Part shown: positions 4,145-6,590 of the stretch, piece by piece | How positions within the stretch are numbered: position 1 is the stretch's first letter | Layout of the letters: each line of letters starts with the position of its first letter | UHGV virus genome: UHGV-0019869 | Source of the DNA: a virus | Reading direction: 5' to 3' (one strand) | Length of the DNA: 21,353 nt | Translations under genes and position numbers: made by a program | Notes under the pieces: generated by a model | The model's input: the letters and a program-made list of their open reading frames with translations, nothing else | Databases searched by the model: none | Told to the model about the DNA's origin: nothing

Positions 4145-4216
4145 TTGGTTTTTCTCCACGGATTTACTGACAACCGAAGCCCTGACTGTTCCCGCAGTTG
4201 GGGCTTCACTGTTTTT
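4145..4216 (+). ncRNA. sar: Candidate Sar-like antisense RNA (about 70 nt) complementary to the ant RBS and start region
   Basis: A plus-strand -10-like TATACT at 4133-4138 lies inside the ant 5' end, and a plus-strand hairpin (gaagccc 4176-4182 / gggcttc 4201-4207) is followed by TTTTT at 4212-4216. Position and size match the P22 sar antisense RNA architecture. The -35 element is weak. Confidence 0.4.
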
Positions 4217-4427
4217 GTAAGTCACTGTAGTTATAAAGCCACTGACCACTCATTCTTGCTTTGATTGACTCTACTGAATCACGGCAAGGAATGATTCCAC
4301 CTGACATCATTCTGATCTCCGTAAATTCACCGCTCCTTATCGACTCAATGCCATTAACGTTAACTAAAGATTTACCTCTACCAAGTGCATTCTCATAGCC
4401 AATCTCATCAACCTCAATAAACTTCAT
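4206..4427 (-). CDS. Hypothetical 73-aa protein inserted between arc and ant
   Basis: The ATG at 4425-4427 overlaps the arc TGA stop (ATGA overlap), with a purine-rich stretch upstream. No family recognised. This ORF occupies what I recall as a short arc-ant intercistronic region in P22. Confidence 0.5.
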
Positions 4428-4672: not shown

Positions 4673-4927
4673 ATGGCTAGAGACGATCCGCACTTTAACT
4701 TCCGTATGCCTTTGGAAGTAAGAGAAAAATTGAAATTAAGAGCAGAGGCTAACGGAAGGTCAATGAACTCTGAGTTATTACAAATCGTTCAGGATGCTCT
4801 CTCAAAGCCATCATCAATTGTAGGCTATCGAGACGAAGCTGAGCGAGTCGCGGATGAGCAATCTGACGTTGTTAAGAAGATGGTCTTTGAAACGCTGAAA
4901 AATATTTATAGCAAAAGTAAGTTATAG
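4673..4927 (+). CDS. mnt: Mnt repressor (ribbon-helix-helix), 84 aa
   Basis: MARDDPHFNFRMPLEVREKLKLRAEANGRSMNSELLQIVQDALSKPS... is near-identical to P22 Mnt as I recall it. Divergent from arc, as in immI. Confidence 0.9.
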   Translation: MARDDPHFNFRMPLEVREKLKLRAEANGRSMNSELLQIVQDALSKPSSIVGYRDEAERVADEQSDVVKKMVFETLKNIYSKSKL

Positions 4928-4976
4928 GCTTATGACGTATAGTTAACCATATCGATATTGGCTCGCGTGATGACAA

Positions 4977-5696
4977 ATGAAAAAAAGTAATGGACTCACA
5001 TTAAAACTTGACGGAACCACCCCTGGCCAGCTGTCAATGGCTAAGTTGGTCAAGTATATGTCTGCTCTCGTAGATCTATACGGTTCTGCAGATTCTGTTC
5101 ACTTCGACTGTGTAAGTGAAGGATCGGCTGACTTAAATGCATGGGTCGATAATGATATTTGTTATAACGCTGTCATAGCAAGGGCCTCTCTCTCAGCCAA
5201 AGAGAAATCACCCGCGTATCAAAAAATTGTTAATTTACTGGAGCATGATGGTTTTTCAGCGAAACTACTCGGACGAAACCACTCAACCATTATCGCATTC
5301 CCGCGAGTAAAAAAGGAGCCAATCCCTTTACTCATAACAAAAACGTCAGAAGTTCAAGGAAGGCTATACAGTGTTGGCGGAAAAGACAACTCAATACCTG
5401 TGCGTATTGAGGGAGCCAACGGTGAAACATTCAAGTGCGAGGCAACCCCTGATTTGGCGGCAGCTCTTGGGTCCCATCTATTCAAATATATTAGGGTTAA
5501 AGGAGATGGGTGCTGGGAAAAAAAGAACAACAAATGGGAGCTAAAGAAACTAAAAATAACTTCATTTGTATTGCTCAAAAAATCATCACTCAAGGATGCT
5601 ATTAATGCTATCAAGCAAGTTCCTGGAGATCAGTGGTCCGAGGAACGCGATGTTGATTCAATCCTTAGGACTCTGAGGAAGATAAATTGCGAGTAA
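4977..5696 (+). CDS. Hypothetical 239-aa protein, first gene of the accessory cassette downstream of mnt
   Basis: Long ORF in a markedly AT-rich segment (about 30% G+C in a sampled line, against 40-63% in sampled structural-gene lines). Its 3' end overlaps the next gene's start by 10 nt. No recognisable catalytic motif. Weak RBS. Confidence 0.65.
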   Translation: MKKSNGLTLKLDGTTPGQLSMAKLVKYMSALVDLYGSADSVHFDCVSEGSADLNAWVDNDICYNAVIARASLSAKEKSPAYQKIVNLLEHDGFSAKLLGRNHSTIIAFPRVKKEPIPLLITKTSEVQGRLYSVGGKDNSIPVRIEGANGETFKCEATPDLAAALGSHLFKYIRVKGDGCWEKKNNKWELKKLKITSFVLLKKSSLKDAINAIKQVPGDQWSEERDVDSILRTLRKINCE

Positions 5697-6235
5697 TTTT
5701 AGATACCAATATTCTGGTATACCTACTATCAGATATAGAACACGATTATAGATTATCTGACCCTATACTTGGTTCTGAGATTCCAGATGCCAAAAGAAGA
5801 GCAGAAGCTCTTGTTGATCGAATAGATAACAAGAACGGGACAATCATCGTTCCAACTCCTGTATTGGCGGAGTTTTTAGTTGGAATCCATAAAGATTACC
5901 AACAAGAAAAACTGAATGTTATCAAATCGTTATCGTGCTTCGAAACTGTATCATTTGATGAGTTGGCTGCTATTGAATGCGCATCGATACCAACATTAAA
6001 AGAATTAAGGAAAATTAGCACAGAAGGTACAGCAAACAAAATTAAGTTTGACAGACAAATAATAGCAATTGCAAGAGCAATTAATGCTGACGAGGTATGG
6101 ACTCATGATAAGGGAGTGTTTGAGCGTTGCAAAAGTCTCAATATTCCTGTGTTCACATTATCATCAATAGAACCAATTCCGGTTCAAAGTCTCATGGAGT
6201 TCTTACACGATTCAGACGATCAGAGATTACACTAA
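5687..6235 (+). CDS. PIN-domain nuclease-like protein, 182 aa (TTG start)
   Basis: The N-terminal ILDTNIL motif with an invariant Asp, and downstream acidic residues (AEFLVG; FDRQIIAIARAINADEVWTHDKG), are typical of VapC/PIN folds. The TTG at 5687-5689 is preceded by GAGGAA at 5675-5680. Confidence 0.75.
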   Translation: MRVILDTNILVYLLSDIEHDYRLSDPILGSEIPDAKRRAEALVDRIDNKNGTIIVPTPVLAEFLVGIHKDYQQEKLNVIKSLSCFETVSFDELAAIECASIPTLKELRKISTEGTANKIKFDRQIIAIARAINADEVWTHDKGVFERCKSLNIPVFTLSSIEPIPVQSLMEFLHDSDDQRLH

Positions 6236-6251
6236 AATATAATTTTTATGC

Positions 6252-6279
6252 ATCCGTGATAATTACATCCGTCACGGAT
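6252..6279 (+). promoter_or_regulatory. Inverted repeat atccgtga (12-nt spacer) tcacggat between the PIN gene and the small membrane-protein gene
   Basis: 8-bp perfect inverted repeat at 6252-6259 and 6272-6279, read from the sequence. No T-run follows, so it may be an operator or attenuator rather than a terminator. Confidence 0.3.
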
Positions 6280-6362
6280 ACATAAAGCTATAGCCAAAAG
6301 TGGACAAACCTTTATCTCACTCCAAACCATCTGGTATCCTGCACAAAACTAAGGAGGTTGGT

Positions 6363-6590
6363 GTGAAGCGATGGTTCCTCATAATTACTGTTTTCGCGAT
6401 CATTTACACTATTTTCCCTGCATTAAAAGCACCAATGCAAATAATTTCGCTTGCAATAATTGCAATTGGTGCTTTCATTGCAGTAGCCGTACTTGTGTTT
6501 AAGGTTTTAAAGTTTTTAGTTTGGCTATCAAAAGATGATGGATGCAAAGTTCATCAAGAAAAAGAAGGCAAAATAACCAAAGTTGACTAA
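6363..6590 (+). CDS. Small hydrophobic (predicted two-helix membrane) protein, about 75 aa
   Basis: AGGAGG at 6352-6357 lies 5 nt before the GTG at 6363. The product WFLIITVFAIIYTIFPALKAPMQIISLAIIAIGAFIAVAVLVFKVLKFLVWL is strongly hydrophobic. The ORF track's alternative start at 6300 lacks an RBS. The stop overlaps the convergent gp16-like stop. Confidence 0.55.
   Translation: MKRWFLIITVFAIIYTIFPALKAPMQIISLAIIAIGAFIAVAVLVFKVLKFLVWLSKDDGCKVHQEKEGKITKVD

What the first reader, a model, noticed from the sequence alone, without database searches (positions are those of the whole stretch)
5687..6235. PIN-domain nuclease translationally coupled to a large upstream partner instead of a small VapB-type antitoxin
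The TTG start at 5687 overlaps the last codons of the 239-aa ORF by 10 nt and has its own GAGGAA RBS, implying coupled expression and fixed stoichiometry. Canonical PIN toxins pair with antitoxins of about 70-90 aa carrying a DNA-binding domain; here the partner is 239 aa with no obvious DNA-binding fold. The partner could be a sensor or regulator that holds the nuclease inactive until infection.
Basis: inference. Interest (0 to 1): 0.6.

Follow-up and report, generated by a model that had tools for sequence, protein, structure and literature searches.

The report
Prophage PIN nuclease with OB-fold partner
A P22-like E. coli prophage carries, just behind its maintenance repressor gene, a tightly coupled pair of genes (a PIN-domain nuclease and a new kind of nucleic-acid-binding partner) that always travel together in many bacteria and most likely form an untested toxin-antitoxin-like anti-phage system.

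Summary
A 239-aa ORF (4977-5696) and a 182-aa PIN ORF (TTG at 5687, to 6235) overlap by 10 nt, with a GAGGAA Shine-Dalgarno inside the upstream gene. The PIN matches Pfam PF01850 and keeps its acidic tetrad (D6, E62, D122, D141). The pair is obligate: 23/23 partner-seeded genome loci and 44/44 PIN-seeded viral loci hold both genes adjacent on one strand, down to 28% identity, and the two proteins co-diverge (r = 0.95). The claim that the partner lacks a DNA-binding fold is wrong. Structure prediction gives a ferredoxin-like N-domain, an SSB/RPA/MCM-type OB fold and a poorly ordered C-terminal tail. The family has about 1,558 clusters and no Pfam, NCBIfam, PADLOC or PDB relative. The window is a P22-like prophage. 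The pair sits directly after mnt, where P22 has orf59a. Elsewhere it usually follows a cI-like repressor. PIN starts with TTG or GTG in 24/26 pairs. Decayed loci lose PIN and never the partner alone. Best reading: an unvalidated, TA-like prophage defence module. This PIN is listed by DefensePredictor as a putative novel defence gene. I rate it a new variant of a known kind, of moderate interest.

The parts
4673..4927 (+). mnt (Arc/Mnt-type RHH maintenance repressor). It is the gene directly upstream on the same strand and is context, not part of the mobile pair.
   Evidence: Pfam Arc (5.7e-27) plus Repressor_Mnt (4.8e-13). Same position as P22 mnt.
4977..5696 (+). Partner gene, 239 aa and 26.4 kDa, ATG start. 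It belongs to an unannotated family (phrog_19868).
   Evidence: A profile search finds 1,558 clusters at 50% identity, nearly all 230-260 aa. No Pfam, NCBIfam, PADLOC or PDB match.
4977..5306 (+). Partner N-terminal domain (aa 1-110): ferredoxin-like alpha+beta fold (b-a-b-b-a-a-b-b).
5328..5576 (+). Partner OB-fold domain (aa 118-200): b1-b2-b3-helix-b4-b5. It carries the invariant QG(R/K)LYxVGGKD loop plus W180 and W187. The domain is basic (median pI 8.7 across the family).
5589..5693 (+). Partner C-terminal helical tail (aa 205-239), low model confidence. It has a conserved GxxW motif and a near-invariant Arg (R234). It is a candidate PIN-binding or neutralising segment.
   Evidence: pLDDT 54-73. 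Conservation. The Arg codon doubles as the PIN Shine-Dalgarno. The binding role is inferred by analogy with VapB/FitA tails.
5675..5680 (+). Shine-Dalgarno GAGGAA for the PIN gene, inside the partner's coding sequence.
   Evidence: An AGG/GAGG/AGGGG motif lies at the same place in 26 unique homologous pairs.
5687..5696 (+). 10-nt overlap of the PIN start (TTG) with the partner's last codons and stop (translational coupling).
   Evidence: The gene junction is -14 to +3 nt in all homologous loci.
5687..6235 (+). PIN-domain nuclease gene, 182 aa and 20.6 kDa, TTG start. Catalytic codons: D6 5702-5704, E62 5870-5872, D122 6050-6052 (in the invariant FDRQI motif), D141 6107-6109.
   Evidence: Pfam PF01850 above its gathering score. 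Invariant acidic tetrad. phrog_21691. PGAP names it 'PIN domain-containing protein' WP_001263856.1.
6244..6287 (+). Stable stem-loop immediately after the PIN stop codon, with no U-tract. It may mark the 3' end of the module (transcript end or stabiliser).
   Evidence: RNA fold gives -17.1 kcal/mol, z = -4.8, and 0 of 200 shuffles fold as well. It occupies the same relative place as t_mnt after orf59a in P22. Its function is not tested.

Best explanation
This is a self-contained two-gene cassette carried as cargo by temperate phages and other mobile elements. It is expressed from the prophage together with the lysogeny repressor (here mnt; elsewhere cI-like repressors). The downstream gene encodes an active-site-intact PIN-domain nuclease, the effector. 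The upstream gene encodes a 26-kDa protein with a ferredoxin-like domain, a basic OB-fold nucleic-acid-binding domain and a flexible C-terminal tail. I propose a toxin-antitoxin-like arrangement. The partner is made in excess (ATG start, against a coupled TTG/GTG start for PIN), binds PIN and keeps it inactive. An infection-linked signal then frees or activates the nuclease. The most plausible signal is a nucleic acid or nucleoprotein intermediate bound by the OB domain, or loss of the partner. The freed nuclease cuts RNA (tRNA, rRNA or mRNA, as VapC enzymes do) or phage nucleic acid and aborts the superinfection. Shown: the gene structure, the PIN identity and catalytic residues, the predicted fold of the partner, the obligate linkage and co-divergence, the preferred position in lysogeny operons, and the asymmetric decay. 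Inferred: physical complex formation, inhibition by the partner, the trigger, the substrate and the anti-phage phenotype.
For: 1. PIN domain with an invariant D6/E62/D122/D141 tetrad.
2. Obligate pairing in both directions. All 23 real partner-seeded genome loci have PIN or its remnant directly downstream. All 44 PIN-seeded IMG/VR loci have the partner directly upstream. Pairing persists at 28-32% partner identity in Providencia, Marinobacterium and Binatia.
3. Co-divergence: the Mantel correlation of pairwise identities is r = 0.95, and 0 of 2,000 permutations reach it.
4. TA-like gene design. The partner comes first and always starts with ATG. PIN starts with TTG or GTG in 24 of 26 unique pairs. 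Junctions are -14 to +3 nt, with a strong Shine-Dalgarno.
5. Asymmetric decay. PIN alone is broken in five independent loci (L019, L026, L037, L043, L088), both genes in one (L032), and the partner alone in none. If hits fell by gene length, five of five in PIN has p of about 0.015.
6. Lysogeny-operon position. In this window the pair follows mnt, where P22 has orf59a upstream of sieA. It follows cI/S24 repressors in Pseudomonas, Providencia, Pantoea and Halomonas, in phage Ostro and in a Kingella phage-plasmid. Of 53 non-redundant upstream neighbours, 17 are Peptidase_S24 repressors and 3 are Arc/Mnt.
7. Other contexts are also mobile or defence-like: a lambda J/I tail gap, primase-carrying elements, next to Mrr, and next to IS1595.
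8. The partner's OB domain is SSB/RPA/MCM-like and basic.
9. DefensePredictor (Science 2026, PMC13092281, Table S10) lists this exact PIN, WP_001263856.1, as 'predicted_defensive TRUE / putative novel defense gene', mean log-odds 6.81.
Against: There is no experimental datum for this family: no toxicity, binding or protection assay. No PADLOC model matches either protein. The validated two-gene PIN system DS-5 is not a TA: deleting its partner abolished defence without unleashing toxicity (PMC13092281), so a non-TA logic has precedent. The conserved C-terminal Arg, which looks like a VapB/FitA-type active-site plug, is encoded by the AGG that also forms the PIN Shine-Dalgarno. Its conservation may therefore be a DNA-level constraint. 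The decay asymmetry rests on six events. The OB fold rests on predicted structure only, and no nucleic-acid-binding motif was verified. The Brenes and Laub 2025 paper on E. coli prophage defence systems could not be read, so prior validation there cannot be excluded.
Confidence: 0.55

Rival explanations
1. The pair is an obligate two-subunit nuclease rather than a TA (DS-5-like logic). The OB-fold partner would be the substrate-recognition or activating subunit, for example presenting a tRNA anticodon loop or ssDNA to PIN. PIN alone would be inert and non-toxic, and both proteins would be needed for defence.
For: OB-fold matches include SSB, RPA and the anticodon-binding domains of Asp/Asn-tRNA synthetases. 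The OB domain is basic. The precedent is DS-5, where the non-PIN gene is essential for defence and its deletion is not toxic (PMC13092281). Strict co-occurrence and co-divergence fit an obligate heteromer equally well.
Against: If PIN were harmless alone, partner-only inactivation should be as common as PIN-only. The observed counts are 0 against 5. Conserved weak TTG/GTG starts on PIN with ATG on the partner suggest selection to keep PIN below the partner, which is typical of toxins. DS-5's partner (166 aa, DUF5830/AcrIF4-like) is unrelated: no DUF5830 hit was found here.
Confidence: 0.22
2. The pair is a plain addiction or stabilisation toxin-antitoxin module. It would keep the prophage or mobile element in the population by post-segregational killing and would have no role against incoming phages.
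For: It has TA-like architecture, weak PIN starts and asymmetric decay. It is also present on plasmids and phage-plasmids (Kingella, Cupriavidus, Methylobacterium). In E. coli LC-1302-2020 the pair persists in a prophage remnant truncated by IS elements.
Against: Most copies are in integrated prophages, which do not segregate like plasmids. The recurrent placement in repressor operons matches known exclusion and defence cargo such as rexAB, sieA and BstA. A large two-domain nucleic-acid-binding partner is more than neutralisation would need. The PIN is flagged as defensive by DefensePredictor.
Confidence: 0.13
3. The pair serves the phage's own life cycle. Examples would be an RNA-processing or DNA-processing nuclease with an SSB-like accessory protein acting in the lysis-lysogeny decision, in induction, or in degrading host nucleic acids.
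For: It is adjacent to the immI (arc/mnt/ant) or immC regulatory regions. The partner is SSB-like.
Against: The pair is absent from most P22-like phages, including P22, E212 and EC.P3, which have other genes in this slot. It occurs in unrelated phage types and positions (a lambda tail gap, satellite-like elements) and in non-phage contexts (Mrr, IS1595). This is moron-like, accessory behaviour. Its GC content (37-42%) is at or below that of the flanks.
Confidence: 0.07
4. The pair is a canonical VapBC whose true antitoxin is the neighbouring small RHH protein (the 84-aa mnt product, which hits the FitA-like RHH Pfam model). On this reading the 239-aa gene is an unrelated passenger.
For: The Mnt ORF matches PF22513 FitA-like_RHH (5e-8) and lies just upstream on the same strand.
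Against: The 84-aa protein is a bona fide Mnt. It has Arc plus the Mnt C-terminal domain and about 87% DNA identity to P22 mnt, and it occurs in P22 without any PIN. In 50 of 53 other contexts no Arc/Mnt gene precedes the pair, whereas the 239-aa family is present in every one.
Confidence: 0.02

Closest known systems
VapBC type II toxin-antitoxin systems (for example Shigella/Salmonella VapBC and Neisseria FitAB)
   Same: The effector is a PIN-domain protein with the conserved acidic tetrad. The upstream partner gene overlaps and is translationally coupled to the toxin gene. The module is frequent on mobile elements. The partner has a flexible C-terminal tail with a conserved Arg, as VapB and FitA have (the last point is an analogy only).
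   Different: The partner is 239 aa, not 70-90 aa. It has no RHH, AbrB, Phd or HTH DNA-binding domain and instead has a ferredoxin-like domain plus an OB fold. The PIN is 182 aa, with an insertion of about 20 residues between the first Asp and the Glu. It scores far below NCBIfam VapC cut-offs (27 against 140 bits) and finds no solved PIN structure by sequence. Toxicity and neutralisation are untested.
DS-5 (DefensePredictor, DeWeirdt et al., Science 2026, PMC13092281): an E. coli two-gene PIN defence system
   Same: [quoted passage not shown] Its PIN catalytic residues are needed for defence. Its partner is not VapB-like.
   Different: DS-5's partner (WP_021513008.1) is 166 aa with DUF5830 and an AcrIF4-like domain. 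The partner here is 239 aa with no DUF5830 hit and a different predicted fold. DS-5's PIN catalytic residues are D7/E44, against D6/E62 here. DS-5 behaves as a non-TA system, whereas the decay pattern here hints at PIN toxicity. The same paper lists this window's PIN only as an unvalidated prediction.
Prophage lysogeny-operon exclusion and defence cargo (lambda rexAB after cI, P22 sieA/orf59a after mnt, BTP1 BstA)
   Same: The genomic logic is the same: accessory genes on the repressor's strand, directly downstream, expected to be expressed in the lysogen. In this window the pair occupies the orf59a slot of the P22 mnt-sieA region.
   Different: The proteins and presumably the mechanism are unrelated. 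RexAB acts at the membrane as an ion channel, SieA blocks DNA injection at the inner membrane, and BstA has KilA-N/DNA-binding features. The system here is a soluble nuclease plus an OB-fold protein.
ShosTA (Rst_DprA-PPRT): a TA-type defence system with a large ssDNA-binding-type antitoxin
   Same: The concept is shared: a two-gene TA-like defence carried by mobile elements, whose non-toxic partner is a sizeable protein with a nucleic-acid-binding fold rather than a small transcription-factor-like antitoxin. This comparison comes from my own knowledge and was not tested here.
   Different: The folds differ on both sides: a DprA-like antitoxin and a phosphoribosyltransferase toxin, against an OB-fold partner and a PIN nuclease. 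There was no PADLOC match.
HEC-03 (Payne et al. 2024 preprint): ABC ATPase plus PIN defence pair
   Same: The PIN effector is VapC-like and is paired with a large non-VapB partner. Defence was validated for HEC-03.
   Different: The HEC-03 partner is an ABC ATPase. The partner here has no ATPase motif or hit.

Membership tests
VapBC type II TA | The toxin has a PIN-domain fold with the four conserved acidic residues. | tested here: met
   PF01850 at 40.8 bits, above the gathering score of 23.6. D6, E62, D122 and D141 are invariant in 29 homologues.
VapBC type II TA | The toxin reaches curated VapC family models (NCBIfam equivalog or subfamily cut-offs). | tested here: not met
   Best scores are NF047863 at 27.1 bits against a cut-off of 140, and TIGR00028 at 19.9 against 73.6. 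No PDB PIN is found by sequence or profile.
VapBC type II TA | The antitoxin is small (about 70-90 aa) with an N-terminal RHH, AbrB, Phd/YefM or HTH DNA-binding domain. | tested here: not met
   The partner is 239 aa with no Pfam or NCBIfam hit. Its predicted fold is a ferredoxin-like domain plus an OB fold.
VapBC type II TA | The antitoxin gene lies upstream and is overlapping or translationally coupled with the toxin gene. | tested here: met
   A 10-nt overlap here. Junctions of -14 to +3 nt in all homologous loci.
VapBC type II TA | The toxin arrests growth and the cognate antitoxin neutralises it by direct binding. | not testable with these tools
   Only indirect evidence exists: PIN-only decay in 5 loci, partner-only in 0, and weak PIN start codons.
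VapBC type II TA | The operon is autoregulated by the antitoxin or complex binding to its own promoter. | not tested
   The pair usually sits behind another gene's promoter (mnt or cI). One sub-clade carries its own conserved promoter-like element. Operator binding is unknown.
DS-5 (DefensePredictor PIN pair) | The partner protein carries DUF5830 and an AcrIF4-like domain and is about 166 aa. | tested here: not met
   No DUF5830 hit at E <= 1 for the window protein or for 10 diverse relatives. The length is 239 aa. DS-5 accessions are WP_021513008.1 and WP_021513009.1, against WP_000749484.1 and WP_001263856.1 here.
HEC-03 (ABC ATPase + PIN) | The partner is an ABC-type ATPase. | tested here: not met
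   No ATPase domain in Pfam and no PADLOC hit for either protein.
Known anti-phage defence systems (PADLOC-DB v2.0.0) | Either protein matches a model of a described or candidate system. | tested here: not met
   Zero hits at E <= 1 for both proteins.
Prophage lysogeny-operon defence or exclusion cargo (rexAB, sieA, BstA type) | The module is located directly downstream of, and co-oriented with, the prophage maintenance repressor, and is variable among related phages. | tested here: met
   It follows mnt here, replacing P22 orf59a. It follows cI/S24 repressors in at least 17 of 53 non-redundant contexts and Arc/Mnt in 3. It is absent from P22, E212 and EC.P3.
Prophage lysogeny-operon defence or exclusion cargo (rexAB, sieA, BstA type) | The module is expressed in the lysogen and protects against superinfecting phages. 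| not testable with these tools
   No expression or infection data exist. The only support is a machine-learning prediction ('putative novel defense gene').
OB-fold nucleic-acid-binding proteins (SSB, RPA, PriB, MCM-N) | A five-stranded beta-barrel with a helix between strands 3 and 4 that superposes on known OB folds. | tested here: met
OB-fold nucleic-acid-binding proteins (SSB, RPA, PriB, MCM-N) | Sequence membership in an SSB, tRNA_anti-codon or other OB Pfam family, and demonstrated nucleic-acid binding. | tested here: not met
   No Pfam or PDB sequence match. Binding is not testable here.

The most novel reading that the evidence does not exclude
The partner is a new kind of infection sensor. 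Its OB-fold, with the ferredoxin-like domain, would bind a phage-specific nucleic-acid species (ssDNA replication or recombination intermediates, or a particular RNA or tRNA). That binding would switch the bound PIN nuclease from inhibited to active. On this reading the pair is a nucleic-acid-gated PIN abortive-infection system, which temperate phages of many Proteobacteria place in their repressor operons to exclude rivals. It would define a new, widespread defence family (more than 1,500 clusters) and a new solution to the problem of how TA-like defence systems sense phage.
Probability: 0.25. Interest if true: 0.75.

Novelty: new variant of a known kind. Interest (0 to 1): 0.55.

Why it matters
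PIN/VapC nucleases are the most abundant TA toxins, yet their link to phage defence has only recently been shown, and only for a few unrelated pairs (HEC-03, DS-3, DS-5). This pair couples a divergent PIN to a large, completely unannotated partner family (about 1,558 clusters at 50% identity) with a predicted SSB-type OB fold. Temperate phages from Enterobacterales to Halomonas repeatedly place it right behind their immunity repressor, the classic home of superinfection-exclusion genes. If validated, it would add a widespread prophage-borne defence family. It would also offer a tractable model for how a nuclease effector is gated by a nucleic-acid-binding partner. It is common in clinical E. 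coli prophages, which bears on phage-therapy host range. It would also give a function to two PHROG families and to a gene that a machine-learning screen flagged but did not test.

Tried and rejected
1. Canonical VapBC membership was rejected on the antitoxin criterion and on the curated VapC cut-offs.
2. Mnt as the real antitoxin was rejected. It is genuine P22-type Mnt and is absent from most other contexts.
3. The Kelch-repeat hits of the partner profile in PDB (7on6 and others) are spurious matches of the short 'GRLYSVGG' motif to repeated designer-Kelch blades.
4. PADLOC, NCBIfam, Pfam (on 10 diverse relatives) and PDB sequence or profile searches for the partner all gave nothing.
5. The BFVD viral fold search gave only partial OB/SSB matches with TM below 0.3 and no full-length relative.
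6. The afdb50 fold library was unavailable.
8. The 75/96-aa membrane protein downstream (6300-6590) was considered as a third gene and rejected. That slot varies among near-identical E. coli loci, and in 41 of 59 other loci the downstream gene is on the opposite strand.
9. A Ser-His-Asp triad in the N-domain (S50, H42, D91) was dismissed because H42 is not conserved in distant relatives.
10. The Fc02 'two overlapping exclusion genes' paper is unrelated.
11. All ten allowed literature searches, including accession-number searches, found no description of this pair. Brenes and Laub 2025 is not held.
12. The profile scan with the very diverse alignment A3 failed for lack of a conserved stretch, so A1 was used instead.
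Full report
OBSERVATION.
The window is the late and immI part of a P22-like prophage of E. coli. It holds terminase, portal, scaffold, coat, gp4/10/26, the ejection proteins gp7/20/16, then arc/mnt/ant and the tailspike.

- On the + strand, mnt (4673-4927) is followed after 49 nt by a 239-aa ORF (4977-5696, ATG).
- That ORF overlaps by 10 nt a 182-aa ORF (5687-6235) that can only start at the TTG at 5687. This is the first start after a stop in that frame, and any later start would delete the first catalytic Asp.
- GAGGAA lies 6 nt upstream of the TTG.
- The exact partner protein is indexed in 2,750 blocks of public assemblies.

THE NUCLEASE.
- The 182-aa protein matches Pfam PIN (PF01850, E = 4e-10, above the gathering score).
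- In an alignment of 29 homologues down to 31% identity, D6, E62, D122 (inside an invariant FDRQI motif) and D141 are invariant. E97, R38 and a PTPV-L-E motif are also invariant or nearly so.
- It is nevertheless a divergent PIN. It is 182 aa and has an insertion of about 20 residues between the first Asp and the Glu.
- It scores far below NCBIfam VapC cut-offs. Neither the sequence nor a family profile finds any solved PIN structure.

THE PARTNER.
- The 239-aa protein has no hit in Pfam, NCBIfam, PADLOC or PDB. Ten diverse relatives also gave no Pfam hit.
- It is the PHROG family 19868, of unknown function.
- A profile search of 1.84 billion cluster representatives finds 1,558 relatives (784 at E <= 1e-10). 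Nearly all are 230-260 aa and match end to end. This is a large, uniform and unannotated family.
- AlphaFold2 with a 34-sequence alignment gives a confident model (mean pLDDT 85). The N-domain alone scores pLDDT 92 and pTM 0.84.
- The OB domain is basic (median pI 8.7), whereas PIN is acidic (median pI 5.0).
- Residues 205-239 are low-confidence helices with a conserved GxxW motif and a near-invariant Arg.
It is right that the partner is nothing like VapB.

LINKAGE.
I tested co-occurrence from both sides.

- Seeding with the partner in one-genome-per-species contigs returned 23 true loci. Twenty have an intact PIN gene directly downstream on the same strand. The other three have a decayed one.
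- Seeding with PIN in IMG/VR returned 44 loci, down to 29% identity. All 44 have the partner directly upstream.
- Individually fetched distant PIN homologues (Providencia at 39%, Marinobacterium at 37%, Binatia at 35%) also have an upstream 232-260-aa protein that is 28-32% identical to the window partner.
- Across 26 unique pairs, pairwise identities of the two proteins correlate at r = 0.95, and 0 of 2,000 Mantel permutations reach this value.
- The gene junction is always -14 to +3 nt. The partner always starts with ATG. PIN starts with TTG (16), GTG (8) or ATG (2), behind a strong AGG-containing Shine-Dalgarno.
- The downstream membrane-protein gene (6300/6363-6590) is not part of the unit. 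That slot varies even among near-identical E. coli loci, and elsewhere the next gene is usually on the other strand.

CONTEXT.
- In P22 the order is arc <- | mnt -> orf59a -> t_mnt, P_sieA -> sieA | <- gene 16.
- In this window the flanks are conserved (about 87% identity to P22), but orf59a is replaced by the pair. The pair should therefore be made in the lysogen from the mnt transcript.
- A strong hairpin follows the PIN stop codon (6244-6287, z = -4.8), where P22 has t_mnt.
- The same logic recurs elsewhere. The pair follows a cI-type S24 repressor in Pseudomonas prophages, in the isolated temperate phage Ostro, and in Providencia, Pantoea and Halomonas. In a Kingella phage-plasmid it lies about 2 kb downstream of a LexA-family repressor on the same strand, with other genes between.
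- In a tally of 53 non-redundant upstream neighbours, 17 are Peptidase_S24 repressors and 3 are Arc/Mnt.
- Other sites are a lambda J/I tail-gene gap, primase-bearing elements, next to Mrr and next to IS1595.
- The pair is absent from most sequenced P22-like phages.
- This is the behaviour of a mobile accessory 'moron' of the defence or exclusion class.

MECHANISM.
Three lines point to a toxin-antitoxin-like relationship.

- The gene order and coupling are those of type II TA operons.
- Selection for weak start codons on PIN, with ATG on the partner, is conserved over deep divergence.
- Among decayed copies, PIN alone is broken in five independent lineages: E. coli L043 (nonsense), Pseudomonas L019 (frameshift), Marinobacter L026 (truncation), Kingella L037 (frameshift) and a viral contig L088 (frameshift). 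Both genes are broken once (L032). The partner alone is never broken. If hits fell by gene length, five of five in PIN has p of about 0.015.

The flexible C-tail with a conserved Arg recalls the VapB and FitA tails that plug the PIN active site (established knowledge for FitAB and VapBC). I found, however, that the Arg codon is also the core of the PIN gene's Shine-Dalgarno, so this argument is weak.

The OB fold suggests that the partner also binds nucleic acid. This could be a sensor of infection (ssDNA or RNA intermediates) or a specificity subunit that delivers substrate to PIN. I could not predict the complex.

My best explanation is a prophage-expressed, TA-like PIN defence module gated by an OB-fold partner (confidence 0.55). 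The rivals are:
- an obligate two-subunit nuclease without toxicity, as shown for DS-5 (0.22);
- a pure addiction module (0.13);
- a role in the phage's own life cycle (0.07);
- Mnt as the real antitoxin (0.02).

COMPARISON WITH WHAT IS KNOWN.
- The pair works like VapBC in outline but fails the membership tests on the antitoxin and on curated VapC models.
- It is not DS-5, whose partner is 166 aa with DUF5830 and an AcrIF4-like domain. It is not HEC-03, whose partner is an ABC ATPase. It is not any PADLOC v2 system.
- Ten literature searches found no description of the pair.
- The one trace is Table S10 of DefensePredictor (Science 2026). It lists WP_001263856.1 among uncharacterised E. coli clusters as 'predicted_defensive TRUE, putative novel defense gene' (mean log-odds 6.81), with no homology or Foldseek hit and no validation.
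- Brenes and Laub (Cell Host Microbe 2025), a screen of E. coli prophage defence systems, is not in the library, so prior validation there cannot be excluded.

VERDICT.
A competent PIN nuclease is obligately coupled to a large non-VapB partner, in a place where prophages keep anti-phage cargo. The correction is that the partner does have a predicted nucleic-acid-binding (OB) fold. I rate it a new variant of a known kind (PIN-based TA/defence modules with a novel partner family), with interest 0.55. The most novel reading not excluded is a nucleic-acid-gated PIN abortive-infection system defining a widespread new defence family (probability about 0.25, interest about 0.75 if true).

Noticed in passing
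window 6300-6590 (+); PGAP start at 6363: A small two-TM protein (75 aa from 6363, or 96 aa from the GTG at 6300; phrog_7294, unknown function) lies between PIN and gene 16, in the slot where P22 has sieA. P22 P_sieA-like DNA lies just upstream (about 6328-6365). It is not similar to P22 SieA by BLASTP. Near-identical E. coli prophages have 0-, 101-, 122-, 129- or 140-aa genes here. It may be another exclusion-type moron.
   Followed up: partly
window 6244-6287 (+): A strong stem-loop follows the PIN stop codon directly (-17.1 kcal/mol, z = -4.8) and has no U-tract. It occupies the position of t_mnt in P22. Its function as a terminator or stabiliser is untested.
   Followed up: partly
window 5675-5680 and partner codon R234 (5674-5676 region); homologous loci L002-L034: The near-invariant C-terminal Arg of the partner is encoded by the AGG that is also the core of the PIN gene's Shine-Dalgarno in almost every lineage. 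This is a dual coding and regulatory constraint that confounds conservation-based inference about the tail.
   Followed up: yes
L012/L005 and L015 (Pantoea latae NZ_MWUE01000022.1, about 12 kb apart); L054 and L066 (IMGVR_UViG_2791355159_000004): Two diverged copies of the whole pair occur in one prophage region: one in the lambda-type J/I tail gap and one behind a cI-like repressor. This suggests non-redundant specificities or non-cross-neutralising pairs.
   Followed up: no
L014, L015, L016, L059, L060, about 75 nt upstream of the partner ATG: One sub-clade carries a conserved sigma-70-like element (TTGACG-N17-AACAAT) that travels with the pair through different genomic contexts. This implies that the module has its own promoter in addition to read-through from the repressor gene. 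The window's sub-clade has only a weak candidate (about 4933-4960).
   Followed up: partly
L001 (E. coli LC-1302-2020, NZ_CP091756.1 3060484-3073742): In this strain the prophage is a remnant. Gene 16 is truncated by an IS3-family element, and IS2 lies beyond the tailspike. The mnt-partner-PIN block is nevertheless intact, which fits selection for, or addiction to, the pair.
   Followed up: no
window 4206-4427 (-): A 73-aa ORF with no family hit lies between arc and ant and overlaps both by 4 nt. P22 has no gene there, only the sar antisense RNA region. It is annotated as hypothetical in E. coli relatives.
   Followed up: no
L025 (Marinobacter excellens) upstream neighbour; DefensePredictor DS-6: In one locus the pair lies next to a DUF3037 protein. 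DUF3037 is one of the domains newly validated in defence (the HipA-type DS-6) by DefensePredictor, which hints at a defence-island context.
   Followed up: no
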